NCBI GenBank assembly: GCA_041166945.1
Contig: JBEEGQ010000425.1
Span: 1-47,322 of the forward strand
Direction of reading: 5' to 3'
Origin: Verrucomicrobiota bacterium
GTDB lineage: Bacteria; Verrucomicrobiota; Verrucomicrobiia; Limisphaerales; JADJPG01
Length of the DNA stretch: 47,322 nt
The notes beneath the pieces are model-generated. The model was not told the origin of the DNA and ran no database searches. It saw only the letters and a list, made by a program, of their open reading frames with translations. Shown one piece after another: positions 2,057 through 33,699 of this stretch (position 1 is the first letter of the stretch; each line of letters begins with the position of its first letter). Made by a program: the position numbers and the translations under genes.

Positions 2057-4510
2057 TTATTTCAGGTGCGATAATTTTCGCACCACCCATTCGACGGTGA
2101 CCACGGAGAGCATCAGGATGAAATAAAGCGGTGAGGCCCACAGTTCGACCTCCATTGGAGACTGCACGCGCTCTGTTTTTGCGCTGATCAATTCGGGCAG
2201 CTTGTGCAGGTCTTCCTCGCGAAAAAACTGGCCGCCGGTGGTGGCCGCGAGTTCCCTGAGCAATCCCTCGTTCATCGCCGTTTCGCCAAATTCGAACTTC
2301 GGCTCGCTGACATTGAAATCGAGCAAGGTCGCCGGATCGCTTTCGACCCAAAAGCTGTAAGCTCCGGCGGCGGGCGCCACGAACTCGCCACGATACATCG
2401 CCGGTTGCTCGGGGATCGATCGCAGGATGACCTCGGGCCGCGCGCCGCTCCCATTTTTCAATCCGAACGCGGCCTTCACTGACGGTTCCAGGATCGGGTC
2501 AAAACCGACTCCACTGTAAAGCCGCGCATAAACAGTCACGCGATCGCCCGTCAAATAATTCTGTCGATCGGTGGTCAGCTGAGTCCGCCGTGAAACGCCG
2601 AGCAGACGCTGGATTGAAACGCGTTGCGCGATCTGGCCCCACATCGCCGTGTAATAGAAGTCGCCGGCGTTCTTGCGCCAGCGCCAGGTGTTGTCGGTGC
2701 CAATATACAGGACCTGCCCGAGGCCATATTGCTGGACCGCGACGACGGGCATCTTTCCAAAGCGCGATTCCTTGGCGGGATCGGGATCGACCAGGAGCAC
2801 TTCGGCGGCGGGTTTCGGACGCGAAACCCGGGCCACCCAGTAAACCGGCGGGAGCTGCGCCCACAATTGCGCGTTCTCCTCGTCCTTGTCCGAAAATCGC
2901 AGCATGGCATTGGCTCGCCCCGCGGCGGTGAGTTGCAGTTTCACGGGCTTTTCTGCGATTGGATCCTGGCTGGATTCAAGCGTCGGCGGATCAAATTCCA
3001 CGGGCAAAAGCTTATCGATCGCGCTCCGCCGGTATTGTCCCGGCATGAAACGCTTTCCGGCCACCACCAGCAGACCGCCGCCAAAGTCGCTGACCAGCTT
3101 GTTCAAATTATCCTGGTGCTGCGCGTTCAGGATTTTCGGGTCCACATCACCCAGGATCACGAGATCATATTTGAAGAGCTCATCACGACGGGCGGGAAAT
3201 TCCGGCAAATAAGGGGAGTCGGCGACCCGGCTGATTCCCTTGTCGCCTTCGACCAGATAACATTTCAACTCCACGCGACGATCGCGCAACAGCATCGCCT
3301 GGAGATAACGAAATTCCCATCGCGGCGCCTGGTCCACGAGCAGAACCTTGATCTTCGCATCGATGACCTTCAATCGTTGCATCCGCGAGTTGTTGTCCTT
3401 CACGGTTTCGTCGGGGCGGGCCTCGATGCTGGCGGTCAGCTCGAACTCGCCGAGGCTTTGGGGTGTGAATTTCAACGCCACAACCTGTTCGCCGTCGCCG
3501 CTGAAATTGATGGTCCGGGTCGCCACGGTCTGGTCCCCGAGCTTCAGTTGCAGCTCCGCCGATTCCCCGGACAATCCCTGGGCGCGCACACGCACCGTCA
3601 CCGGCACTTCGTCCTTCACAAAGGTCACATCCGGCGCGAACAAATTCTGGATGATGATATCGCGCGGGCTGGTGATGCCGACGCCGTAGATGAACAGGGG
3701 GACATTCTCCTGCCGCGCGAGCGCCGCTGCGTCCCGGGGCTGGCTGCCGGAATTATTCACCCCATCGGTCACCAGGACGATGCCCGCCAGCGGCTGGCCG
3801 CGCTTGCGATTGAGCACCTCGCGGATGCCATCGCCAATCGCCGTCGTCGGGGCGGTGGCGCCGAGCCGGTCGACCCAGTCAAACTGGTCCACGGACACTG
3901 CGCCATCCTTTGCGGGCGAATTGGTTTCGGCCTTGCGCGCCGACAGTTCGGCGACCCCCTGGCCGAAGCTGAACGCCGACAGATCAAATTCCTTGTCGAG
4001 ACGCGGCAACAAATTCAGGCGCTCGTTCTTGAGAATGGCCTTCGTCAGGTCGAGCCGGGCGACCTGTTCGTATTCGCGCGCGTGGCTGCGATCGAGCGCC
4101 TGGTTCAGGCCGGCCCTGGGATCCAGCAGATTCCTCGCGATGGCCGCCCGCTTCTGATCGTTCGCGTCGAGACGCGGATCCTTAATTTGCATCGATGAAC
4201 TGCCGTCGAGCAGCATGACGAGCACGCGGCGGACGCTGCCTTCGACCGTGAATGCCAGCACCGGACGCAGCAGCAGCGCCAACAACAGCGCCATGAAAAT
4301 GACACGCAACACCGTCAGCGTGTGACGCCGCCATCGCGGGAGCGTCACCGGACTGGCCTTGTACATCCAGAACACCAGACCCGCGGCCGCTAAAACCAGC
4401 AGCACCCACCAACCTGTCCCCAGCCCGCCCCGGAATGCCAGGGACGCCTTGGCGATATGCACCGCGTCATTCGCGGGCACACCCAGGAGTTTGAGCAGGA
4501 GGTCGGTCAT
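2057..4510 (-). CDS. BatA_N (N-terminal double-transmembrane) / von Willebrand factor A domain membrane protein, about 817 aa
   Basis: The maximal ORF is 2057-4558. The likely start is the ATG at 4510 ('MTDLLLKLLGV'). Two N-terminal TM segments are followed by 'RVLVMLLDGSSSMQIKD', a VWA MIDAS-like DxSxS motif. The long C-terminal region has 'LLVDQAPRWEFRYL', typical of these Verrucomicrobia/Planctomycetes giants. It is convergent with the upstream + strand gene. Confidence 0.8.
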   Translation of the reverse strand: MTDLLLKLLGVPANDAVHIAKASLAFRGGLGTGWWVLLVLAAAGLVFWMYKASPVTLPRWRRHTLTVLRVIFMALLLALLLRPVLAFTVEGSVRRVLVMLLDGSSSMQIKDPRLDANDQKRAAIARNLLDPRAGLNQALDRSHAREYEQVARLDLTKAILKNERLNLLPRLDKEFDLSAFSFGQGVAELSARKAETNSPAKDGAVSVDQFDWVDRLGATAPTTAIGDGIREVLNRKRGQPLAGIVLVTDGVNNSGSQPRDAAALARQENVPLFIYGVGITSPRDIIIQNLFAPDVTFVKDEVPVTVRVRAQGLSGESAELQLKLGDQTVATRTINFSGDGEQVVALKFTPQSLGEFELTASIEARPDETVKDNNSRMQRLKVIDAKIKVLLVDQAPRWEFRYLQAMLLRDRRVELKCYLVEGDKGISRVADSPYLPEFPARRDELFKYDLVILGDVDPKILNAQHQDNLNKLVSDFGGGLLVVAGKRFMPGQYRRSAIDKLLPVEFDPPTLESSQDPIAEKPVKLQLTAAGRANAMLRFSDKDEENAQLWAQLPPVYWVARVSRPKPAAEVLLVDPDPAKESRFGKMPVVAVQQYGLGQVLYIGTDNTWRWRKNAGDFYYTAMWGQIAQRVSIQRLLGVSRRTQLTTDRQNYLTGDRVTVYARLYSGVGFDPILEPSVKAAFGLKNGSGARPEVILRSIPEQPAMYRGEFVAPAAGAYSFWVESDPATLLDFNVSEPKFEFGETAMNEGLLRELAATTGGQFFREEDLHKLPELISAKTERVQSPMEVELWASPLYFILMLSVVTVEWVVRKLSHLK

Positions 4511-4622
4511 CGGGCGCGCATGGTAGGGACAGATGAGGTTTAGACCAGAGAAATTCAACCAATCTCAAGAACGGATCGACGCCGGTTCGCGTGATTGCGC
4601 CAGGCGCCTCCACCGATTAAAA

Positions 4623-5837
4623 ATGGCGCGCATGTTCTGCTCATTCCACGCCTCCGGCCGCGCACGACACGCGGGCCGATGCCTCGCCGCGGCTCTCGCG
4701 CTCGGCATGGCGGGCTGCGATTCCCGCCAGCACGCCGGGGACGGCATCACCTACACGCACGATACGGTGACGCGCGTCCCATGGTCCATTCATGTTCTGA
4801 AGATTGATCGTTCGCGGCGCGATCTGGAATGGCACACGACCCTCGCCCAGGGTCATGTGGTCGGGTTGAGCACGCTCGTGCAACAGGTCCAGGCGCTGCC
4901 CCGCTCCCTCGGCCAACCGCTCGCCGCCATCAACGGCGATTTTTACATCGCGGATGAACGGAGCCCCTATGTGGGCGACCCGCGCGGCTTGCAGGTCCTG
5001 GACGGTGAACTCGTGAGCGCGCCGAGCGATCAGGCGAGCTTTTGGATCGACGCCAATGGCGGTCCCCAGGCGACAAATCTCGTCTCGGAACTGCGCGTTT
5101 TTTGGCCCGGGAAAATCGAACCCGCGGCGACGCCGTTGGGATTGAATGAAGAGCGCGCAAAAAACTCAGCCGTCCTCTACACGCCGCGATTTGGCAATTC
5201 GACACGAACCCGGGGAGGCGTCGAGCTGATCCTCGAACGCGATAGCGATGAAGCCTGGCTCCCGCTGCGGGCCGGTCTCGACATTCCCGCCCGAGTGCGG
5301 GAGGTGCGCGCGGGCGGAAACGCCCCACTCGATACCAATACGATGATACTGTCGTTGTCACCGGGTCTGCTCACAAATTTTCCCGCGCTTCTTCAGGTGA
5401 CAACCGGCGCGGTATTGCGTGTTTCCACTGCCACAATTCCCTCGCTGGCTGGCGTCAAGACGGCCATCAGCGGTGGCCATGTGCTGATTCGTGACGGCAA
5501 AAAAGTCGGGCTGGGCGTGCCGGATTCGAGGGATTTCAAGTTTCGATCCGTGCACGAACGGCATCCCCGATCCGCCGTGGGCTCCAACCGTGACCATTTT
5601 TTTCTGGTGGAAGTCGATGGACGTCAGCCCGGGTTGTCGATGGGGATGACCCTCTCGGAGTTGGCGGATTACATGTTGAAATTGGGATGTGACATGGCGG
5701 TGAGCCTCGATGGCGGAGGGTCATCGACGCTGTGGCTCCGGGGCAAGGTGGTCAACAGCCCGAGCAATGGCGGTCCGCGCTCGATCGCCAACGGCCTGGT
5801 AATTATTCGGAAACTTTCCGGGCCCGGCGAGCGTTGA
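4623..5837 (+). CDS. Phosphodiester glycosidase family protein (NAGPA/DUF2233-like), paralog 1
   Basis: The ATG at 4623 gives the signal/lipoprotein-like N-terminus 'MARMFCSFH..LALGMAGC'. Motifs: 'PWSIHVLKIDRSR', 'AINGDFY', 'HPRSAVG', 'FFLVEVDGRQPGLSMGMTLSELADYMLKLGCDMAVSLDGGGSSTLW'. The maximal ORF starts at 4533. Confidence 0.85.
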   Translation: MARMFCSFHASGRARHAGRCLAAALALGMAGCDSRQHAGDGITYTHDTVTRVPWSIHVLKIDRSRRDLEWHTTLAQGHVVGLSTLVQQVQALPRSLGQPLAAINGDFYIADERSPYVGDPRGLQVLDGELVSAPSDQASFWIDANGGPQATNLVSELRVFWPGKIEPAATPLGLNEERAKNSAVLYTPRFGNSTRTRGGVELILERDSDEAWLPLRAGLDIPARVREVRAGGNAPLDTNTMILSLSPGLLTNFPALLQVTTGAVLRVSTATIPSLAGVKTAISGGHVLIRDGKKVGLGVPDSRDFKFRSVHERHPRSAVGSNRDHFFLVEVDGRQPGLSMGMTLSELADYMLKLGCDMAVSLDGGGSSTLWLRGKVVNSPSNGGPRSIANGLVIIRKLSGPGER

Positions 5838-23400: not shown

Positions 23401-23937
23401 GTGTGCACGTTCAAACGGTATTTCCAAGTGGTGCGGAACTCGAACGACCAGCCGACGATTCAGAATCCGTTCTTCCACCTGAGCGGCGATGGGTTTTGGT
23501 CGCTCGTGCCCGCGCCAAGGCAGGCACCGAGGTATCGGCCGGGCGCAACATCCGGGGCGCCGAGCGTGGCGGAGTTGCACCGCACGGGTTTGACGATGAT
23601 GATGGCGCGCTTTCTGGTAAGCCCCTTTCAATGTACGCACGCCCACATCGAAAGCGGGCCTTCCACCGACCACGCCCACGAGTTCGAGCGTTTCTGGGAA
23701 ATCGACAATCTTCCTGGCCGGGAACTGCTGCAAGCTTGTGCAGAGATTTATGACCGTCTCGACGATTTGGTTCGAGACGCGCATCGGCGACTTGGGTGGA
23801 GCATGCTGTCTCACAGACCAGAAGGCTCGCAGAGAGCCCTGCCCTGTATGGTTGCCAAGCACCGGACAGTGCGGACCGTTGTGAAGGAAGGACGCGAAGT
23901 GTGGGAGAACGAACCGCTCGGATTACACGGTCACTGA
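23401..23937 (+). CDS. Hypothetical protein whose first ~40 aa resemble the N-terminal recognition-domain motif of HNH_2-type (ScoMcrA-like) restriction endonucleases. Probably a truncated or chimeric remnant
   Basis: 'FKRYFQVVRNSNDQPTIQNPFFHLSGDGFWSLVP' matches the '..RY...V......P..NPFFHL..DGFWHL' signature as I remember it. No HNH motif follows. The upstream sequence has stops in this frame, and the start is a GTG. Confidence 0.35.
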   Translation: MCTFKRYFQVVRNSNDQPTIQNPFFHLSGDGFWSLVPAPRQAPRYRPGATSGAPSVAELHRTGLTMMMARFLVSPFQCTHAHIESGPSTDHAHEFERFWEIDNLPGRELLQACAEIYDRLDDLVRDAHRRLGWSMLSHRPEGSQRALPCMVAKHRTVRTVVKEGREVWENEPLGLHGH

Positions 23938-24060
23938 GGAAGTGCCCGCTCAATTCCTCGAAGAAAATGGGATTTGAAGCAGCGTTTGGCGAAACCATCG
24001 CAAAACGCACTTTGGCTGGAACCGCCATTGTCCGACCCCATGTGAGAATCTCGTTCGCAA

Positions 24061-24972
24061 ATGAAGAAGGAATCTTACAAACTTCCGGGCATGAGGGGTC
24101 CAAAGCAGCAGTTCGGCGGCGACTGGACCGCACAGAAACTTGAGTGTGTCCGCAAGTATCTCGTCGCCTACGCAACGATAATGCAGAAGCAGAAATTCCG
24201 CTTCGCATACATCGATGCATTCGCCGGGACCGGTTACAACACGCCAAAGGCAAGGAAGGAGGAAGGTGCGCCACCGTTTCTCGAGCTCGCCGGCGAGGAC
24301 GCCACCAGCTTTCTCGACGGCTCTGCCCGCATTGCTCTCAAGGTGGAACCACGCTTCACCAAATACCTTTTCATTGAAAAGGATCCCAAGCGATTCGCTG
24401 AACTTGGCAAGCTGAAGGAGGAGTTTCCAGCGCTGGCGAGCGACATCGTGCTGATCAACGCGGATTCGAACGCTTACCTGCGGGATATCTGTGAAAACCG
24501 ACGATGAGAACAGAATCGGGCGGTGCTGTTCCTTGATCCCTACGGAATGCAGGTGACGTGGGACACGATGAAAGCCATCGCAAAGACAAAGGCGATCGAC
24601 CTATGGATACTATTCCCGCTCGGCATTGGGGTGAACCGTCTGCTGCGCCGGGACGCGAAAATCAGCGAAGGCTGGCAGCGACGGCTTGATGATTTTTTCG
24701 GCACTCCGCATTGGCGAGATGCCTTTTACCAAATGAAAACGGAGCAAGGCTTGTTCGGCGAAGAGGCGCAAACCGAAAAAACAGCTGACTTCCGCGCCAT
24801 CGGAAAGTTCTTCGTGGAGCATCTGGGCACAATCTTTCCTGGCGTCGCGAAGAATCCGCTCGCGCTCCACAATTCTGTGAACACACCGCTTTATCTGCTA
24901 TGTTTTGCCGCGGGCAACGAGCGCGGAGCAAAAACGGCTGTCAAAATTGCCCAGGACATTTTGAAACCATGA
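24061..24972 (+). pseudogene. tcmP: Three-Cys-motif partner protein TcmP homolog, interrupted by a single in-frame TGA (24505-24507)
   Basis: ORFs 24061-24507 and 24523-24972 are in the same frame (frame 1) and are separated only by 'CGA CGA TGA GAA CAG'. The read-through product would be '..DICENRR*EQNRAVLFLDPYGMQVTWDTMKAIAKTKAIDLWILFP..'. The N-terminal 'WTAQKLECVRKYLVAYATIM..FAYIDAFAGTGY' and 'LFLDPYG' fit my recollection of the TcmP family. Confidence 0.7.
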
Positions 24973-26111
24973 CCACGTTCCTCGACACGACGGCCGCAAC
25001 GCTGGAAGCCAGTACAGGGCGTCCAGAAACTGTTCCCTCGCCTCATCGAGGAGGAAGCTCTGGATTCAGCGGTGACAACCGCGTCGGCATGTGGTCGTCG
25101 CCTGCCGTCATCGCGCCGAACAACTTTGTTTACAAGAGCCTCTCGAATTGGGCGCTCAACATCGCGGTGGGCTGCTCACACGCGTGCCGGTTCTGCTACG
25201 TGCCCAGCGCGGCAACCATCAAGCAGGGACCGAAGCTCGCGGAATACGGGGTCAACGACCCGGACGCCGAATGGGGCGATTACGTGCTGCTCCGCCCGTG
25301 GGAAGAAAAAAAATTCCTTGCGTCGCTGCGCGCGGCGGAGTGCATGTCCCGCTCGCAGCTCAAACCTGACGGAAATCGCGCCGTGATGTATTGCAGCACC
25401 ACGGATCCATACCAGGTCATCCACCATCCGGACCCGGAGCGGCGGCGGATCCTTGGGCAGCACGCCCGCCTGCTTACGCGCCGTTCGCTGGAACTCATCC
25501 GCGACGAGTCCACTCTCAACGTTCGCATCCTGACACGCAGTCCCCTGGCCCGGGCGGATTTCGATTTGTTCAAGAGTTTCGGGCGTCGTCTGCTCTTTGG
25601 CATGAGCTTGCCGACTTTGCGCAACGATCTCGCCAAGGTTTACGAGCCAAAGGCCCCGGCGCCATCCCAGCGCCTCGCAGCGCTTCGATCTGCCCGCGAA
25701 GTGGGTTTGCATATCTATGTGGCCATCGCGCCCACTTACCCGGAAAGCGATGAGGCCGACTTGCGTGCCACCCTTCGCGCCGTGGCCGACGTCGAACCCG
25801 TCACGATCTTTCACGAACCGATCAATATTCGCGCTGAAAACGTGCAACGAATCCAATCTCACGCCGACGAACTGGGGATAGAATTAAAGACTGAGGTTTT
25901 CGCCTCGCGCGAGCAGTGGCAGGACTACGCAGTGAACGCATTGAAAACTGTGGAACGGCTGGCTGGCGAATTAGGCATTGCAGATCGCCTCCATCTCTGG
26001 CCCGACAAATCGCTTGGCAACGTGGGGGTTGCCAATCGAATGCCCAAGCCGAAGGAATATCTGCAGTGGCTGCAGAAGTGGTGGACCCGGATCAGCGAAT
26101 GGCCCGAATGA
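24969..26111 (+). CDS. Radical SAM-like protein with a CxxxCxxC three-Cys motif (SplB/COG1533-like), partner of TcmP
   Basis: ATG 24969 overlaps the tcmP stop (ATGA at 24969-24972). 'NIAVGCSHACRFCYVPS' is CX3CX2C. 'YCSTTDPYQ', 'ILTRSPLARADFDLFKSF..LFGMSLPT' and 'VAIAPTYPE' resemble the partial TIM barrel strands of COG1533 proteins. Confidence 0.8.
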   Translation: MTTFLDTTAATLEASTGRPETVPSPHRGGSSGFSGDNRVGMWSSPAVIAPNNFVYKSLSNWALNIAVGCSHACRFCYVPSAATIKQGPKLAEYGVNDPDAEWGDYVLLRPWEEKKFLASLRAAECMSRSQLKPDGNRAVMYCSTTDPYQVIHHPDPERRRILGQHARLLTRRSLELIRDESTLNVRILTRSPLARADFDLFKSFGRRLLFGMSLPTLRNDLAKVYEPKAPAPSQRLAALRSAREVGLHIYVAIAPTYPESDEADLRATLRAVADVEPVTIFHEPINIRAENVQRIQSHADELGIELKTEVFASREQWQDYAVNALKTVERLAGELGIADRLHLWPDKSLGNVGVANRMPKPKEYLQWLQKWWTRISEWPE

Positions 26112-27895: not shown

Positions 27896-28243
27896 ATGAA
27901 AACTTCTTCTCCTGACCCCAAATCCATCCTCCAACAAATCGCTGCCATTTCCGCCATGGAGACAGGCAAGCTTTCCTCCTACGTGCCCACCGGGCGGCCC
28001 CCGTCCACTCAACCCTACTTCAAACTCCAGTCCTGGCAGAACGGTAAGAACATCACCCGTCACGTGCGCTCCGAGCAGGTCCCCCAACTCCAGGCCGCTC
28101 TCGAAGGACATGCTCGATTCCTCCAGCTCTGCGAGCAATATGCCCAGCTCATGGTGGCGCGCACCCGCGCGGATTGGGAAAAGGACTCAAAAAAAAAGCA
28201 GATTCCACCGTACACCAGGCGTTCACCGAAGAACTCCAAGTAG
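27896..28243 (+). CDS. ISKra4-family transposase, N-terminal part (orfA, frame 2)
   Basis: 'ISAMETGKLSSY..YFKLQSWQNGKNITRHVRSEQVPQLQAALEGHARFLQLCEQYAQLMVARTR' matches the N-terminal region of ISKra4 transposases as I recall it. The frame changes at the A9 run at 28189-28197. Confidence 0.75.
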   Translation: MKTSSPDPKSILQQIAAISAMETGKLSSYVPTGRPPSTQPYFKLQSWQNGKNITRHVRSEQVPQLQAALEGHARFLQLCEQYAQLMVARTRADWEKDSKKKQIPPYTRRSPKNSK

Positions 28244-29514
28244 TCCTCCACCCCGTGCTGCAGGATTTACCTGCTCCCTTGCTCCAAATGGAAACGGTAT
28301 TTCGGCAATGCCTCTTGCAAGCGGGACTCAAAATCTTCGGCCCTTTGCTCCAGCAGCGGGTTGATCAGATCGACGCCCACTATCAACCCAAGCCCCAGTC
28401 CCGGCGTCATGGCCGTCGGCCCCTTGATGTCAGCACTCTCTTTGGTCAGGTCACCGTGCTGCGTGACTATTACCACGGGCCTGATGGAGGTCACTGTCCG
28501 GCCGATGCTCAGCTAGGATTGGAGGGCAGCACGACTCCTGCGCTGGCTCGGTTGGTCTGCCGGGCTGCTGCCCAGCAGCCTTACGGAGCCGCCAGTCGGG
28601 ACCTGCATGAGTATGGCTCCATCCAAGTCGATGAACGCCAGATTCAGCGGGTGGTTCAGCACATTGGACCGGCCTGTGAACCGTGGCTGGCCAGCCTGAC
28701 TTCTTCGGCCAAGGCCGTCCCCATCCTTTATGTGACCTGTGATGGCACAGGCACGCCCATGCGAAAGGAAGAACTCCAAGGTCGCAAAGGCCGCCAGAAA
28801 GATGGCTCAGCCAAAACCCGCGAGGTCAAGTTGGGAGCGGTGTTCACTCAGCACAAGGTCGATGAGAAAGGCAGGCCGATGCGCGATCACCAATCAACGA
28901 CTTATGTCGGCAGTTTTAAAGGTGCCGATGCCTTTGCCCTCCTCTTGCGCGATGAGGCCCGACGGCGCGCCGTGGGAGCCGCTCAACAGGTCATCTTTCT
29001 GAGCGACGGGGCCGCTTGGGCAGAGGAGATCCCTGGCCAGTGCTTTGCCGGGGCCGTCAGCATCCTGGATTTTTATCACACTGCCCAAAGGGTCCATAAA
29101 TTGGCCTCATTGTTACAACCTGCGGATAAGAATCTAGCCTCCCGCTGGATTAAACTCTTGCTCAAGGACCAGGTCGCCAAGGTCATTACGCAGGTCAAGA
29201 CACTTCAGGAGTCCTTGCCAATGCTCAGCGATCCCGACGACAACTTAGGATTCATGGAACGGCATCAGCACCGAAAGAATTACGGGACCTATCGGAAAAA
29301 GGGTTTGTTCATCGGCAGTGGAGTCATTGAAGCGGGTTGCAAGAACGTCGTCGGCAAGCGGCTCAAGCAATCTGGCATGTTTTGGTCAGAATCAGGGGCC
29401 ACCTGTGTCCTACACTTCCGAACTTTGTTGTTAAGTCAGCGCTTCGATGCCTTCTGGAAACACCGTCACAACGTTCACGCCTCCAAAAACGACTGCCTCC
29501 ACCTGGCGGCGTAA
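28174..29514 (+). CDS. ISKra4-family transposase, catalytic/C-terminal part (orfB, frame 1)
   Basis: 'LYVTCDGTGTPMRKEEL', 'REVKLGAVF', 'VIFLSDGAAWAEE', 'ILDFYHTAQRVHKLA', 'GLFIGSGVIEAGCKNVVGKRLKQSGMFWSESGA..LHFRTLLLSQRFDAFW' are highly characteristic of ISKra4 transposases. Confidence 0.85.
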   Translation: MGKGLKKKADSTVHQAFTEELQVVLHPVLQDLPAPLLQMETVFRQCLLQAGLKIFGPLLQQRVDQIDAHYQPKPQSRRHGRRPLDVSTLFGQVTVLRDYYHGPDGGHCPADAQLGLEGSTTPALARLVCRAAAQQPYGAASRDLHEYGSIQVDERQIQRVVQHIGPACEPWLASLTSSAKAVPILYVTCDGTGTPMRKEELQGRKGRQKDGSAKTREVKLGAVFTQHKVDEKGRPMRDHQSTTYVGSFKGADAFALLLRDEARRRAVGAAQQVIFLSDGAAWAEEIPGQCFAGAVSILDFYHTAQRVHKLASLLQPADKNLASRWIKLLLKDQVAKVITQVKTLQESLPMLSDPDDNLGFMERHQHRKNYGTYRKKGLFIGSGVIEAGCKNVVGKRLKQSGMFWSESGATCVLHFRTLLLSQRFDAFWKHRHNVHASKNDCLHLAA

Positions 29515-30145: not shown

Positions 30146-30802
30146 TCAACGCCGGGCCTTGCTGGTTGGCCGGGCGCGCGCCTGTGCCCGGACGCGGTAA
30201 AGCCGCTCGGTGAAACCGCCTTCATCCAGAAAGGCTTTTTCCTGGGCGCAGATCTGGCGGTCTAGAAGGCTGCACGCTACCGCGAGCAGCGCCAGTGCGC
30301 CGTTGGCGGCTATCTCTGGAAAGGTAGACACTGTGGACTTGGTGGACGGTATGGACTTTAATCGGCCTTTGCCCCATCCACTTTGTCCATGCCATCCAGT
30401 GGGTCCATCATGCACCGCCCGCACCCAAGCCGCTACGTCATCGGCGGTGGCCGGGCGTGCCGCTATCAGTTCTGCCCGGCGCGTGTCCTCTCTGGGCCAC
30501 TGCCCCAGCCTGCGCTGCCTCAAGTAATCCTCATAGTCCAGCCGGAGTTCCTCCAGACTGGCGCGAGCCACGTTGGTGAGTTTGAGTTCCATTTTCTTGG
30601 ACGTGCCGCTGGCCTGGCTGCCTTCGGCAATGTTCTGCACGCCACTCCGCGCGGCCTGCACCATCTGATCATGCGTGCGGCTGCGTTTGTCCATGTAGCG
30701 GTCGCAGAAACGCACGGTCACGTCGTAGGCCAGTTGCGCCACCTGAAAGCTTTTCAGCTTTCGGTAGCCTCCGTGCAGCGGAATGAGTGTCTCGTCACTC
30801 AT
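30146..30802 (-). CDS. Four-helix-bundle protein (23S rRNA intervening-sequence protein family) with a four-helix-bundle suffix domain
   Basis: 'FQVAQLAYDVTVRFCDRY..DQMVQAARSGVQNIAEGSQ..SKKMELKLTNVARASLEELRLDYEDYL', with C-terminal '..LDEGGFTERLYRVR'. Its ATG overlaps the stop of the hsdM fragment (ATGA on the minus strand at 30799-30802). Confidence 0.8.
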   Translation of the reverse strand: MSDETLIPLHGGYRKLKSFQVAQLAYDVTVRFCDRYMDKRSRTHDQMVQAARSGVQNIAEGSQASGTSKKMELKLTNVARASLEELRLDYEDYLRQRRLGQWPREDTRRAELIAARPATADDVAAWVRAVHDGPTGWHGQSGWGKGRLKSIPSTKSTVSTFPEIAANGALALLAVACSLLDRQICAQEKAFLDEGGFTERLYRVRAQARARPTSKARR

Positions 30803-31269: not shown

Positions 31270-31953
31270 ATGGCTACCGAAGAAAGAGTGCTCTGTTTTC
31301 AGCGGCTACTTCTCGAAGAACTCGGAACGTTTCAGGGGCTCAGCCTCGACGTTGAGAAATACCTGCCCGTTGTCACCTCCCCTTCCCAGATTCTTTATCT
31401 CAACAGGAGCGATGCCGAAAAGGACCGGCGCTATAAACAGCTCATCCCGTACGTCCTCATCCTCTGCAACGATAAAATACTGCGCTATCGACGCGGCAAA
31501 GGCGGGCAGGAAACGCGCCTGCACGGATTGTACTCTGTGGGAGTCGGCGGGCACATCTCCGAGGAGGACAACGAACTTTTTTCAGCGCGCGTCGGGTATC
31601 ATGAAGGCATGCGCCGGGAATTGGTGGAAGAAGTCGCCATCGAGGAGTCGAACGAGGCAGCGGTCGCTGTCATCAATGATGACAGCACGGAAGTTGGGTT
31701 CGTCCATTTTGGAGTCGTTCACGTGATGCGCGTGGCCAACGAGGCGGTCGTGGGGCGACGCAGCGGCATTGTCAGTCCAGAATTTGTTTCCGTCGCTGAA
31801 GCGGTGAAAGATTTGGCCGAATACGAATCCTGGTCCCGCTTCTGCCTGGAACAGCTCGATTCCCTCCTGGCCAAAGCCGCTGCGTTAGGGGTCAGAGGCC
31901 ACGAACGCTCTCTTCCTCCAGCGGCGACTATTGCAGCCGGAGCGGGAAGATAA
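31270..31953 (+). CDS. NUDIX/MutT-family phosphoesterase-like protein (COG4112-like)
   Basis: 'YKQLIPYVLILCNDKILRYRRGKGGQETRLHGLYSVGVGGHISEED..YHEGMRRELVEEVAI' is a degenerate Nudix box (G-x5-E-x7-REL-x-EE-like). Confidence 0.6.
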   Translation: MATEERVLCFQRLLLEELGTFQGLSLDVEKYLPVVTSPSQILYLNRSDAEKDRRYKQLIPYVLILCNDKILRYRRGKGGQETRLHGLYSVGVGGHISEEDNELFSARVGYHEGMRRELVEEVAIEESNEAAVAVINDDSTEVGFVHFGVVHVMRVANEAVVGRRSGIVSPEFVSVAEAVKDLAEYESWSRFCLEQLDSLLAKAAALGVRGHERSLPPAATIAAGAGR

Positions 31954-32371: not shown

Positions 32372-33394
32372 TCAGTGGCCTACACGCGGAGTCCGCACGT
32401 GGAGTTGCTCCAGCCGGCATTGGGTGGGGGTTTTGTCGGGACGCCAGCGAATGAATTTTGTGCCGTGCCGGAAACGTTCGGCGGTCACATGATCGAATTC
32501 CACCTCCACGACCAATTCAGGCCGGAGTGGTTGCCACAACACCGAACGTTTTGTGCTCCAGCGACTCGGTCCGCCGGGAGCACGACCCGTGAAGCCCGGA
32601 GGTTCCACCAGTTTTTCCAACCGGCGCGCCAACGCGGCGCGTTCCGTGGCCTTTAACCCCGAACAAAAACCCACGTGATGAAGGAGCTTCGAATCGTCAT
32701 ACAAACCGAGCAGCAGGGAGCCGACCTGATGCCCTTTTTCCGCATAACGGAATCCGCCCACCACGCAGTCCGCCGTCCGCCGCGGTTTGATCTTCTGCAT
32801 CGCGGTGCGTTCGCCCGGACGATATTCCGCATCCAGCCGTTTCGCGATCAGACCGTCGAGACTTCCTCCCGCGCTACCAAACCATTTCCTGGCGATGCTC
32901 AGCCGCGATGTGGCCGGGGAGAGTTGAAACGGACTGCCGCGTTTAAAATATTTTGCGGCAAACTGTTCGAGCCGACGACGACGCTCGCGGAGCGGGAGGG
33001 GCAACATCGATTTTCCGCGCTCGTCGCACAGCAAATCGAAGATGTGCATTCGCGCGGGCGTTTCGCGGGCCAACCGCTGGACCCGGCTGGCCGCCGGATG
33101 AATGCGCATCAGTAAACGATCGAAAGAAAGCACCCGGCCTTCCGGGACGACGATCTCGCCGTCCAGTACGAATTTTCGCGCGCTTATCGCGAGAAGTGCT
33201 TCGATCAATTCTGGAAAATAACGCGTCAAGGGCTGTCCCGACTTCGATTGCAGCTCGATTTCCCGGCCGTCGCGAAATATCAAGCAGCGGAACCCGTCCC
33301 ACTTGGGTTCGTATTGCCAGGCAGCGCCAGTCGGGATCTCGTCCACGGATAACGCATCCATCGGTAGCAGTCCGGGAAGGACTTCTAATTTCAT
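32372..33394 (-). CDS. ATP-dependent DNA ligase (adenylation + OB domains, LigC/LigD-ligase-domain type), 340 aa
   Basis: ATG 33394 ('MKLEVLPG'). The maximal ORF reaches 33649. Motif I 'YEPKWDGFRCLIF', motif III 'VLDGEIVV', motif IV/V 'LDGLIAKRLDAEYRPGERTAMQKIK', OB-domain 'VEVEFDHVT..RFRHGTKFIRWRPDK'. Confidence 0.9.
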   Translation of the reverse strand: MKLEVLPGLLPMDALSVDEIPTGAAWQYEPKWDGFRCLIFRDGREIELQSKSGQPLTRYFPELIEALLAISARKFVLDGEIVVPEGRVLSFDRLLMRIHPAASRVQRLARETPARMHIFDLLCDERGKSMLPLPLRERRRRLEQFAAKYFKRGSPFQLSPATSRLSIARKWFGSAGGSLDGLIAKRLDAEYRPGERTAMQKIKPRRTADCVVGGFRYAEKGHQVGSLLLGLYDDSKLLHHVGFCSGLKATERAALARRLEKLVEPPGFTGRAPGGPSRWSTKRSVLWQPLRPELVVEVEFDHVTAERFRHGTKFIRWRPDKTPTQCRLEQLHVRTPRVGH

Positions 33395-33699
33395 GCCGCA
33401 TTCACGAGCATTTTTCGTGCGCTGCAATTTTTTTGCCGCAGCGGATCGGTTTGGAGGTGCGGCATCCGAGCAGATTGCAACGCGGCATCCGGCATCCTGC
33501 AATTTGAACGAGCTTTGCCGGTTTGTTTGCCGGAGCAAGTCCGATTGAATTCCCGGAAAACCAGACATAACCGGAGCCCGGGCTCCGATCTCGAGGCTGG
33601 CATATCCGAAGCTCTTTCGCCGCCATCGATCCAGGGTGGCAGGAGCCACGCCACCGGATTGACGACGCCAAATAATCGACGGTCAACAACGGGCCGACC

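What the first reader, a model, noticed from the sequence alone, without database searches (positions are those of the whole stretch)
24061..26111. Translationally coupled TcmP / three-Cys (CxxxCxxC) radical-SAM gene pair: an uncharacterised two-gene module in a tRNA-linked, defence-relic island
Seen in sequence:
- A ~300-codon TcmP-like reading frame has 'FAYIDAFAGTGY', which resembles the FxGxG SAM-binding motif I of DNA methyltransferases, and 'LFLDPYGMQVTW'.
- Its stop overlaps (ATGA, 24969-24972) the start of a 380-aa protein carrying 'GCSHACRFCYVPS', the CX3CX2C signature of radical SAM/SplB-like (COG1533) enzymes.

Established knowledge: to my knowledge the TcmP family is named only for its adjacency to such a three-Cys protein, and no biochemical function has been assigned.

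Inference: the neighbours are a truncated HNH_2-type endonuclease N-terminus, an hsdM relic coupled to a four-helix-bundle protein, an IS element and orphan ORFs. That is the kind of context in which anti-phage or nucleic-acid-modification systems accumulate. A methyltransferase-fold partner plus a radical-SAM enzyme could install or repair an unusual DNA/RNA modification.
Basis: partly seen in the sequence, partly recalled or inferred. Interest (0 to 1): 0.75.

Follow-up and report, generated by a model that had tools for sequence, protein, structure and literature searches.

The report
Broken TcmP gene, SOS-type radical-SAM partner
The two overlapping genes are real, but the methyltransferase-like TcmP gene is broken here, and its radical-SAM partner is a photoproduct-lyase-like enzyme that sits beside the DNA-damage repressor gene lexA in relatives and is paired there with five very different TcmP versions, so this looks more like DNA-damage biology than a phage-defence relic.

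Summary
Window 24061-24972 matches TcmP (TIGR04474, 215.6 bits against a cut-off of 53). Its stop overlaps (ATGA) the start of a 380-aa radical SAM protein with CX3CX2C.

The TcmP frame carries an in-frame TGA at a codon that is Trp in 120 of 120 homologues. TGA is this window's commonest stop codon, so this copy is a pseudogene.

The partner is not the family's usual three-Cys protein. Of 80 TcmP loci from other genomes, 65 hold DUF5131 (the PADLOC candidate PDC-M41), 14 hold this SplB-like radical SAM instead, and one is a truncated contig.

In 71 non-redundant loci the radical SAM stays intact and 72-100% identical. Its upstream gene belongs to five TcmP subfamilies that share only 21-24% identity, and is often broken or lost.

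The only recurrent neighbour is lexA, divergent and adjacent with a palindromic box in 9 of 44 informative loci. Only 1 of 140 flanking ORFs matched a clear restriction-enzyme family.

My best reading is a DNA-damage-linked radical-SAM DNA enzyme with an exchangeable TcmP accessory. A defence or modification role is not excluded. I rate it a new variant of a known kind, of moderate interest.

The parts
24027..24064 (+). Conserved non-coding leader or promoter-like element (ATTGTCC...N...GTTCGCAAATGA) ahead of type-1 TcmP genes. It overlaps the first possible ATG at 24061; the true start may be the ATG at 24091.
   Evidence: The TCGCAAAT(G) half recurs at a fixed distance of about 45-55 nt before the conserved FGGxWT codons in about 11 of 19 type-1 loci. 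The TTTGTCC half recurs in about 6, and also in type-0 locus L006. In L129 the ATG inside the element is followed by a stop, so there the element is non-coding. Among the 80 genome loci, both halves occur only in verrucomicrobial L009, and the second half also in L013. Two other loci (L011, L029) have weak single matches. Its function is inferred.
24061..24504 (+). TcmP pseudogene, 5' part (codons 1-148), with SAM-binding motif I (IDAFAGTG).
   Evidence: TIGR04474 scores 215.6 bits when the stop is read as Trp. This part matches HMM positions 2-138.
24505..24507 (+). Premature in-frame TGA (codon 149) replacing an invariant Trp (TGG to TGA).
   Evidence: The column is W in 120 of 120 homologues. 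TGA ends 11 of 17 long ORFs in the window. The same stop is present in JGI contig Ga0467038_0001866, which is 100% identical over 14.3 kb.
24508..24972 (+). TcmP pseudogene, 3' part (codons 150-303 plus stop), with motif IV (LDPYG). It also carries His254 (24820-24822) at an Arg that is invariant among close homologues.
   Evidence: HMM positions 141-292. For R254H, the window deviates at 2 of 62 invariant columns, the stop codon included.
24969..24972 (+). ATGA overlap of the TcmP stop and the radical SAM start (translational coupling).
   Evidence: The same 4-nt overlap occurs in type-1 pairs L009, L041, L060 and L061.
24969..26111 (+). SplB-like (COG1533-type) radical SAM enzyme, 380 aa, intact.
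   Evidence: PF04055 scores 35.8 bits against 29.5. There are weak hits to PA0069, Rv2578c and mobile-pair-B models. The best structural match is spore photoproduct lyase, E = 2e-4, TM 0.43-0.48. There are 2203 homologues, and the top 120 are 64-88% identical (119 of them 72-88%). The window deviates at 1 of 131 invariant columns, C260S at 25746-25748.
25173..25196 (+). Codons of the CX3CX2C [4Fe-4S]/SAM cluster motif (C69, C73, C76).
   Evidence: The three Cys are invariant in alignment A2.

Best explanation
The locus is a two-gene operon. The conserved working part is a spore-photoproduct-lyase-like radical SAM enzyme of the kind that belongs to bacterial DNA-damage (SOS) regulons.

Proposed mechanism (inferred):
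- The CX3CX2C [4Fe-4S] cluster cleaves SAM to a 5'-deoxyadenosyl radical.
- That radical abstracts a hydrogen from a damaged or modified base in DNA, reversing or processing the lesion.
- TcmP is a SAM-binding, methyltransferase-fold accessory translated just before the enzyme. It is always found beside a radical SAM enzyme of this clade. I infer that it supplies or changes the nucleic-acid target, by flipping out a base, methylating it, or both.

The accessory is exchangeable and dispensable. Relatives carry five deeply divergent TcmP subfamilies in front of an almost unchanged radical SAM gene, and TcmP is often broken or lost while the radical SAM gene stays intact. This window holds such a decaying copy. 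TcmP is cut by a nonsense mutation at invariant Trp149 and has also lost a conserved Arg, so the radical SAM gene is probably working alone. Its position near a tRNA gene and an IS element is incidental.

Shown: family membership, folds, the pseudogene, partner exchange, partner decay, and adjacency to lexA with a box in relatives. Inferred: SOS control of this operon, DNA as the substrate, and the division of labour between the two proteins.
For: 1. Radical SAM identity and fold. The motif is invariant and PF04055 passes its gathering score. The six best PDB matches are all spore photoproduct lyase (E = 2e-4 to 7.5e-4). The best NCBIfam matches are PA0069 and Rv2578c.
2. SOS genes in the literature. 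PA0069 is one of 15 SOS genes of P. aeruginosa (bioRxiv 10.1101/2022.03.14.484287). Rv2578c has a LexA ChIP-seq peak with RecA-dependent induction (PMC3381160). PMC8565304 states that COG1533 SplB is SOS-regulated in several species, citing among others the Verrucomicrobia study. SplB-like genes are also linked to ImuB-C (PMC3765255).
3. lexA adjacency. lexA lies divergently adjacent to the TcmP-radical SAM pair in 9 of 44 informative non-redundant loci, across four TcmP subfamilies. In L095 and L096 it is followed by imuB-dnaE2. LexA is the commonest family among 140 flanking ORFs. A palindrome, TACTATCC-N4-GGATAGTA, sits at each of these lexA starts with 0-2 mismatches. The only other hits in 840 kb are five 4-mismatch matches and the L143-148 group, which keeps a perfect box plus a 5' remnant of lexA.
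4. The radical SAM gene is autonomous and TcmP is accessory. The radical SAM reading frame is open over its full length in all 94 loci. TcmP has in-frame stops in the window, L099 and L172, and frameshifts in L124 and L149. Only a C-terminal remnant survives in L134-137, L163/164 and L142. It is absent in L092, L138 and L161.
5. Exchange. All five upstream subfamilies pass TIGR04474 (119-215 bits) yet share 21-24% identity. Radical SAM identity between partner types (mean 82%) equals identity within types (82-83%). In L102 and L104 the DNA is 94% identical from the start to the stop of the radical SAM gene, with no similarity in the partner gene.
6. TcmP needs such a partner. Of 80 TcmP loci, 65 hold DUF5131, 14 hold the SplB-like enzyme, and 1 is a truncated contig. 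RadicalSAM.org places DUF5131 and spore photoproduct lyase in neighbouring subgroups, Megacluster-5-2 and 5-3 (PMC9477430).
7. TcmP looks like an enzyme. It has a class I methyltransferase fold, with motif I D52, A55 and G56 and motif IV D159 and P160 invariant across 65 diverse members.
Against: - No lexA and no box lie anywhere near the pair in this window. Adjacency holds in only about 20% of informative loci.
- The box overlaps lexA's own start and promoter region, so control of the divergent TcmP operon is inferred, not shown.
- Homology to PA0069 and Rv2578c is weak (51-59 bits against cut-offs of 360-430). Identity to spore photoproduct lyase is 12-14%.
- Extreme diversity of an accessory subunit is more typical of defence or specificity modules than of repair.
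- The usual TcmP-DUF5131 pair was picked up by its embedding in BREX, DISARM or type I RM loci. In Gordonia phage BaxterFox a TcmP-like gene lies between the repressor and the integrase, where temperate phages commonly carry lysogeny-expressed accessory genes (my own knowledge).
- The cyanobacterial TcmP/radical SAM intergenic regions showed no match to the cyanobacterial LexA box as I recalled it.
- No biochemical data exist for any member.
Confidence: 0.45

Rival explanations
1. Defence or epigenetic DNA-modification module. The pair is a variant of the TcmP-DUF5131 candidate system PDC-M41. TcmP chooses the DNA target and the radical SAM enzyme performs an unusual modification, or restricts DNA that lacks it. 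The diversity of TcmP subfamilies reflects an arms race with phages.
For: - TcmP hits PDC-M41A at 1.3e-121, and DUF5131 partners hit PDC-M41B and PDC-M30B at about 1e-119.
- PDC candidates were defined by embedding in BREX, DISARM or type I RM systems.
- TcmP-DUF5131 occurs in phages. In Gordonia phage BaxterFox it lies between the repressor and the integrase.
- A variable partner in front of a conserved catalytic gene, with cassette-like exchange, resembles specificity subunits of modification systems.
- In one lineage an HNH nuclease replaces TcmP.
Against: - The radical SAM protein has no PADLOC hit, and neither do the window's neighbours.
- Only 1 of 140 flanking ORFs matched a restriction family.
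- Flanks are housekeeping or CAZyme-type genes.
- TcmP has no PHROG family.
- The radical SAM gene persists intact after loss of TcmP, which is unexpected if the two only work together.
- No PDC-M41 member has been tested.
Confidence: 0.25
2. Writer-eraser (toxin-antidote-like) selfish cassette. TcmP places a harmful mark on DNA, and the SplB-like enzyme removes it. That would explain why TcmP can be lost freely while the radical SAM gene is kept.
For: - Decay is asymmetric: TcmP is broken or lost in at least 11 non-redundant loci, while the radical SAM reading frame is always open.
- The genes are tightly coupled through the ATGA overlap.
- The cassette is exchanged between lineages.
- Spore photoproduct lyase, the nearest fold, is a direct-reversal enzyme.
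Against: - The radical SAM gene stays highly conserved long after TcmP is gone, so it has a function of its own.
- Radical SAM relatives such as PA0069 and Rv2578c are discussed in the SOS literature as single genes. To my knowledge they have no TcmP partner; I did not check their neighbourhoods.
- No toxicity data exist.
Confidence: 0.1
3. RNA-modification pair. TcmP is an rRNA or tRNA methyltransferase and the radical SAM enzyme modifies the same RNA.
For: Structural neighbours of TcmP include the tRNA enzymes Trm1 and TYW4, an RlmJ-like DUF519 protein, KsgA and RsmD-like methylases.
Against: - These hits have low TM-scores (0.3-0.45) and reflect the generic methyltransferase fold.
- The radical SAM enzyme's nearest fold acts on DNA.
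- The recurrent neighbour is lexA.
- The pair is mobile, variable and dispensable, unlike housekeeping RNA-modification genes.
Confidence: 0.05
4. The TGA is a sequencing or assembly error, or is read through as Trp, and the module is functionally intact in this organism.
For: - It is a single-base difference from TGG.
- The rest of the frame is open and 86% identical to an intact homologue.
- The second contig with the same stop may come from the same reads.
- From general knowledge, near-cognate tRNA-Trp read-through of UGA would restore the original residue at a low level.
Against: - TGA is the main stop codon here.
- The copy has also lost the invariant Arg254 and a near-invariant Pro.
- Five other non-redundant loci show independent stops or frameshifts in TcmP, so decay is a pattern in this family.
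Confidence: 0.1

Closest known systems
TcmP / DUF5131 'three-Cys' pair (NCBIfam TIGR04474 + Pfam PF07505; PADLOC candidates PDC-M41 and PDC-M30)
   Same: The upstream gene is a clear TcmP (215.6 bits). It is 53-69% identical to most of the TcmPs that sit beside DUF5131 in other phyla. The layout is the same: TcmP first, then a Cys-motif radical-SAM-superfamily partner immediately after.
   Different: The partner here is a 380-aa CX3CX2C SplB-like enzyme, not the ~245-aa Cx6Cx2C DUF5131. There is no DUF5131 anywhere in the window. The recurrent neighbour is lexA rather than defence genes. TcmP is a pseudogene here.
SOS-regulated SplB-like radical SAM proteins (COG1533; PA0069 and Rv2578c families)
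   Same: These are the best NCBIfam matches. The fold class is the same. The link to LexA is the same in kind: published for PA0069, Rv2578c and COG1533 in several phyla, and seen here as lexA adjacency plus a box in relatives.
   Different: Scores are far below the family cut-offs (51-59 bits against 360-430). To my knowledge those families are not described with a TcmP partner. No LexA box lies at this window's copy.
Spore photoproduct lyase (SPL, e.g. PDB 4FHC)
   Same: It is the closest solved structure (E = 2e-4, about 260 aligned columns). It is a radical SAM partial TIM barrel that acts on DNA.
   Different: Identity is 12-14% and TM only 0.43-0.48. No spore-photoproduct-lyase model of NCBIfam came up among the hits. 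The host lineage, Verrucomicrobiota going by the names on homologues, does not form spores as far as I know. The catalytic Cys and Tyr of SPL were not mapped.
Radical SAM mobile pair A/B (TIGR04471 / TIGR04470)
   Same: DUF5131 partners hit model A (78 bits), and the window's enzyme hits model B (46.8 bits). So the two alternative TcmP partners resemble two proteins that NCBIfam names as the A and B members of one mobile pair.
   Different: Both scores are far below the cut-offs (355 and 410). No A-type gene is present here.
RsmD / Trm1 / RlmJ-type N-methyltransferases
   Same: TcmP shares the class I fold. It also has a motif I (DxFAGxG) followed by a motif IV-like 'DP(F/Y)G' loop. RsmD-like methylases are its only weak sequence matches in the PDB (E = 0.13-0.74).
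   Different: No sequence match is significant. The aromatic residue of the loop is not kept in all TcmP subfamilies (IDPTG, LDQCG). Methyl transfer has never been shown.

Membership tests
TcmP (NCBIfam TIGR04474) | Score above the curated cut-off over the full model. | tested here: met
   215.6 bits against 53, covering model positions 1-261 of 263, with codon 149 read as Trp.
TcmP (NCBIfam TIGR04474) | Adjacent to the three-Cys protein the family usually accompanies (DUF5131/PF07505). | tested here: not met
   The downstream gene is PF04055, not PF07505. A DUF5131 HMM finds nothing in the window. In other genomes 65 of 80 TcmP loci have DUF5131. That PF07505 is the family's named partner is my recollection; the census is the test.
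TcmP (NCBIfam TIGR04474) | Intact reading frame. | tested here: not met
   There is a TGA at 24505-24507 at a Trp that is invariant in 120 of 120 homologues.
Radical SAM superfamily (PF04055) | CX3CX2C cluster motif, a Pfam score above gathering, and a partial TIM-barrel fold. | tested here: met
   C69, C73 and C76 are invariant. The score is 35.8 bits against 29.5. All top fold matches are radical SAM enzymes. The model has pTM 0.71, but the cluster-binding N-terminus is low-confidence.
Spore photoproduct lyase | Sequence-model match, plus the catalytic Cys and Tyr relay. | tested here: inconclusive
   SPL is the best structural match, but at 12-14% identity and TM 0.43-0.48. It does not appear among the NCBIfam or PDB sequence hits. 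An invariant Cys142 exists, but I could not test whether it corresponds to the SPL hydrogen donor.
PA0069 / Rv2578c radical SAM families (NF033668, NF038135) | Score above the curated cut-off. | tested here: not met
   59.1 bits against 360, and 51.2 bits against 430. The protein is a relative, not a member.
PADLOC PDC-M41 candidate system | Both components present: A (TcmP) and B (DUF5131). | tested here: not met
   A is met at 404 bits. The downstream protein has no PADLOC hit at all. B-type proteins score about 396 bits in other loci.
LexA (SOS) regulon | A LexA operator upstream of the operon. | tested here: not met
   No TACTATCC-N4-GGATAGTA with 4 or fewer mismatches occurs anywhere in the window, and there is no lexA in the window. 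In relatives, the box lies between lexA and the pair in 9 of 44 informative loci.
LexA (SOS) regulon | Induction by DNA damage, or LexA binding. | not testable with these tools
   This needs EMSA or ChIP and expression data. It is published only for distant relatives.
Defence-island gene | Enrichment next to known defence genes across homologous loci. | tested here: not met
   Among 140 flanking ORFs from about 46 loci, the shown top-25 Pfam families (of 94 matched) include one type I restriction family (1 ORF). LexA is the top family with 6 ORFs. Annotated contexts are mostly housekeeping. I made no formal enrichment test against a genome background.

The most novel reading that the evidence does not exclude
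TcmP proteins are interchangeable targeting subunits that reprogram radical SAM DNA enzymes of one clade (DUF5131 or SplB-like). In Verrucomicrobiota, a LexA-controlled SplB-like enzyme is repeatedly refitted with different TcmP cassettes. That would make a damage-induced, retargetable system for DNA modification, repair or immunity of a kind not yet described.
Probability: 0.2. Interest if true: 0.8.

Novelty: new variant of a known kind. Interest (0 to 1): 0.55.

Why it matters
TcmP and DUF5131 are large families known only from bioinformatics. TcmP alone has 3463 clusters at 50% identity with E <= 0.001. SplB-like radical SAM genes recur in SOS regulons of many phyla, yet no substrate is known outside spore formers.

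Three results give a concrete handle on both problems:
- TcmP is always paired with one of two related radical SAM clades.
- The SplB-like partner sits beside lexA.
- Five divergent TcmP subfamilies are swapped in front of a nearly unchanged enzyme.

Together these suggest a shared DNA substrate. They also name natural 'with TcmP' and 'without TcmP' variants to compare, and they separate the DNA-damage reading from the phage-defence reading in a testable way.

For this window in particular, annotation pipelines would call two TcmP fragments. The correct call is one pseudogene.

Tried and rejected
- Sequence searches of both families against the PDB gave only chance-level hits. Fold comparison was needed.
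- The diverse TcmP alignment A3 was too variable for the genome scan. I used A1 instead.
- The verrucomicrobial LexA motif as I remembered it (TGTTC-N4-GAACA) and the Gram-positive box found nothing meaningful. I derived the box from the lexA-adjacent loci instead. The 2016 paper on that motif is not held in the library.
- My recalled cyanobacterial LexA box pattern did not match the cyanobacterial intergenic regions. That test is inconclusive.
- No copy of the 3' end of tRNA-Met marks an island boundary. No terminal inverted repeats were found for the ISKra4 element.
- The sigma-70 and terminator scan around the pair was at background level.
- The 'HNH_2' reading of 23401-23937 was not reproduced. 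JGI's precomputed Pfam label for it is PF26900, Phage_lambda_Ea47.
- The viral-contig scan found one orphan radical SAM homologue (56% identity) without TcmP.
- Searches for TcmP, PDC-M41 and DUF5131 in the paper library found only annotation tables and one superfamily listing.
- I considered TGA being read as Trp (alternative genetic code) and rejected it, because TGA ends most long ORFs here.
Full report
**What is in the window.** The frame 24061-24972 (+) translates to 303 codons and contains FAYIDAFAGTGY and LFLDPYGMQVTW. [quoted passage not shown] It also matches PADLOC PDC-M41A at 1.3e-121. Its TGA stop overlaps the ATG of the next gene in an ATGA at 24969-24972. The next gene, 24969-26111, encodes 380 aa with C69-x3-C73-x2-C76 at 25173-25196. 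That protein passes Pfam Radical_SAM at 35.8 bits against 29.5. It hits the PA0069, Rv2578c and 'mobile pair B' radical SAM models of NCBIfam, but far below their cut-offs. It has no PADLOC hit.

**TcmP is a pseudogene here.** Codon 149 (24505-24507) is TGA. In an alignment with 120 homologues that column is Trp in every one. The homologues are intact proteins, mostly of 293-303 aa. TGA ends 11 of the 17 long ORFs in the window, so it is a true stop in this organism. Besides the stop, the copy has His at the otherwise invariant Arg254 (24820-24822) and Leu at a near-invariant Pro. That fits relaxed selection better than a base-calling slip. A JGI contig that is 100% identical over 14.3 kb carries the same stop, but it may derive from the same reads. 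By contrast, the radical SAM gene deviates at 1 of 131 invariant columns, C260S at 25746-25748.

**Folds.** An AlphaFold model of an intact TcmP (mean pLDDT 80.7) matches only class I SAM-dependent methyltransferases. Among them are AzeJ, an RlmJ-like DUF519 protein and Trm1, with E about 1e-6 and low TM-scores. Across 65 diverse TcmPs, the motif I residues D52, A55 and G56 and the motif IV-like D159 and P160 are invariant. That argues for a working SAM site. The radical SAM model (pTM 0.71, N-terminus poorly predicted) finds spore photoproduct lyase as its six best PDB matches, with E = 2e-4 to 7.5e-4 and TM 0.43-0.48.

**The usual partner of TcmP is a different protein.** A scan of one genome per species returned 80 TcmP loci from many phyla. 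In 34 of 37 loci checked, the gene just downstream is DUF5131/PF07505 at E down to 1e-106, about 245 aa with a Cx6Cx2C motif. It is the same protein as PADLOC PDC-M41B and PDC-M30B. Over all 80 loci, 65 contain DUF5131. Five verrucomicrobial loci instead have the SplB-like radical SAM gene directly downstream. Nine cyanobacterial loci have a related radical SAM gene divergently upstream. The remaining locus is a truncated contig. So TcmP is accompanied by one clade or the other, and never by both or neither. RadicalSAM.org lists DUF5131 and spore photoproduct lyase as neighbouring subgroups, Megacluster-5-2 and 5-3 (PMC9477430). The window's pair is thus a minority variant in which a related radical SAM enzyme stands in for DUF5131.

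**A conserved enzyme with a changing partner.** The metagenome scan and the contig look-ups gave 71 non-redundant loci with this radical SAM gene. Its reading frame is open over its full length in all 94 loci examined. Pairwise identity is 72-100%.

The gene upstream is one of the following:

| Upstream gene | Size | Non-redundant loci |
|---|---|---|
| TcmP type 0 | ~285 aa | 25 |
| TcmP type 1 (the window's) | ~300 aa | 18 |
| TcmP type 2 | 378 aa | 3 |
| TcmP type 3 | 371 aa | 5 |
| TcmP type 4 | ~440 aa | 3 |
| HNH protein | ~195 aa | 3 |
| none, remnant or undetermined | - | 14 |

All five types pass TIGR04474 at 119-215 bits. The three pairs of types that I compared directly share only 21-24% identity or less. 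Radical SAM identity between loci with different partner types (mean 82% for type 0 against type 1) equals that within a type (82-83%). In L102 (type 0) and L104 (type 1) the DNA is 94% identical from the start to the stop codon of the radical SAM gene and unrelated upstream. The enzyme's short N-terminal tail follows partner type only loosely. The window's type-1 TcmP is also 69% identical to a TcmP that sits beside DUF5131 in an acidobacterial genome.

**TcmP decays and the enzyme does not.** Besides the window, in-frame stops occur in L099 and L172, and frameshifts in L124 and L149. Only a C-terminal remnant of TcmP survives in L134-137, L163/164 and L142. No trace is found in L092, L138 or L161. 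TcmP therefore depends on a radical SAM partner, but the radical SAM gene does not depend on TcmP.

**The link to lexA.** In L094, L095 and L096 the gene divergent from the pair is LexA (LexA_DNA_bind plus Peptidase_S24). In L095 and L096 it is followed by imuB-dnaE2. A search of all loci found the same arrangement in 9 of 44 informative non-redundant loci, across TcmP types 0, 1, 2 and 3. Each has a palindrome, TACTATCC-N4-GGATAGTA, with 0-2 mismatches at the lexA start. The only other hits in 840 kb are five 4-mismatch matches and the L143-148 group, which keeps a perfect box and about 300 bp of the lexA 5' end.

Among 140 ORFs flanking the pair in about 46 loci, LexA is the commonest Pfam family, with 6 ORFs. 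The families shown include one restriction-enzyme family, matched by one ORF. The rest are scattered, mostly housekeeping families.

The literature agrees:
- PA0069 is an SOS gene of P. aeruginosa.
- Rv2578c has a LexA ChIP peak (PMC3381160).
- SplB-like genes associate with ImuB-C (PMC3765255).

In this window there is no lexA and no box.

**How it most likely works.** Shown: family membership, folds, the pseudogene, the either-or pairing with two related radical SAM clades, the exchange and decay of TcmP, and adjacency to lexA. Inferred: the enzyme uses its [4Fe-4S] cluster and SAM to make a 5'-deoxyadenosyl radical that acts on a damaged or modified DNA base under SOS control. Also inferred: TcmP, translated just before it, binds SAM and supplies or alters target recognition, or methylates the target. 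In this window TcmP is dead and the enzyme probably works alone. The ATGA coupling means that the premature stop may also lower its translation. I put this at 0.45.

**Rivals.**
- A defence or DNA-modification module like PDC-M41 (0.25). The PDC candidates came from embedding in BREX, DISARM or type I RM loci and are untested. TcmP-DUF5131 occurs in a Synechococcus phage. In Gordonia phage BaxterFox it lies between the repressor and the integrase. A variable partner is typical of specificity subunits. Against this stand the missing defence context and the autonomy of the enzyme.
- A writer-eraser cassette (0.10).
- An RNA-modification pair (0.05).
- Separately, the stop codon could be an error or leaky (0.10).

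**Comparison with what is known, and novelty.** The upstream gene is a member of the TcmP family by sequence, but it is broken and lacks the usual DUF5131 partner. The downstream gene belongs to the radical SAM superfamily and is a relative, not a member, of the PA0069, Rv2578c and spore-photoproduct-lyase families. I found no paper that describes TcmP paired with an SplB-like enzyme, the swapping of TcmP subfamilies, or the lexA linkage of such pairs. I rate it a new variant of a known kind. Interest is 0.55: the instance in this window is a decaying copy, but the family-level pattern is unexpected and testable.

**What led nowhere.**
- PDB sequence searches.
- LexA motifs recalled from memory.
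- Island and IS boundaries.
- The promoter and terminator scan.
- The HNH_2 reading of 23401-23937.
- The viral-contig scan, which found one orphan homologue.

Noticed in passing
L040 5902-7872 (-); also L042 and L053: The cyanobacterial relatives of the radical SAM gene that sit beside TcmP are 652-657 aa, with an insertion right after the Cys motif. The best NCBIfam match is 'intein-containing Rv2578c family radical SAM protein' (131.5 bits, below its cut-off).
   Followed up: partly
L090 (Gordonia phage BaxterFox KU963263) 4463-5488, strand opposite to annotated genes 39-41: A DUF5131-like ORF (370 bits to my DUF5131 HMM) runs antisense to three small annotated genes and is convergent with the TcmP-like gene 42. 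The region lies between the immunity repressor (43) and the integrase (37). The deposited annotation is probably wrong on this stretch.
   Followed up: partly
L157, L159, L170, L175, immediately upstream of the radical SAM gene: In one lineage a ~195-aa HNH protein (weak hits to the HNH regions of Cas9d, IscB and Cas9 models) takes the place of TcmP in front of the same radical SAM gene.
   Followed up: no
L130 7064-8035, L160 7142-8113, L168 7052-7792: Homologous genes of 247-324 aa recur directly downstream of the radical SAM gene in three loci. They are probably the DUF6602 family that was counted four times among the neighbours. The window has no counterpart.
   Followed up: no
window 25746-25748: The window's radical SAM protein has Ser260 where all 47 close homologues have Cys (motif YPECDE). 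The position is at least 90% Cys in the larger set. The effect is unknown.
   Followed up: partly
L143-L148, around 4560-4820: A perfect LexA-type box and about 300 bp of the lexA 5' end persist upstream of a type-2 TcmP-radical SAM pair, although the rest of lexA is gone. The operator region may travel with the pair.
   Followed up: partly
window 28174-29514 (+) and 27896-28243 (+): An ISKra4-family transposase (235.6 bits against a cut-off of 205) is preceded by a small ORF with a weak DUF6788 match. The JGI contig for this region ends inside the transposase, as expected for a repeated element. No terminal inverted repeats were found.
   Followed up: partly
window 30146-30802 (-): A four-helix-bundle protein (TIGR02436) carries the 'four helix bundle suffix' domain (TIGR04258, 68.7 bits).
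   Followed up: no
window 32372-33649 (-): An ATP-dependent DNA ligase (DNA_ligase_A_M plus DNA_ligase_A_C) lies at the far edge of the lower-GC stretch (about 22-32 kb, GC 0.52-0.59 against about 0.61 elsewhere). It is followed by xanthine-dehydrogenase-like genes.
   Followed up: no
window 31270-31953 (+): A 227-aa ORF has no Pfam or NCBIfam match but hits PHROG phrog_8902 (unknown function) at 7.7e-30.
   Followed up: no
L102 1-192; L104 1-93 and 6188-6379: A repeat of about 190 bp (92-96% identical) flanks the pair in two loci that carry different TcmP types but 94%-identical radical SAM genes. It could be a mobile or recombination-prone element.
   Followed up: no
L004 9325-10053 and L005 2407-3192: A UPF0167/CbrC-like (colicin E2 tolerance) gene lies just downstream of the pair in one lineage.
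   Followed up: no
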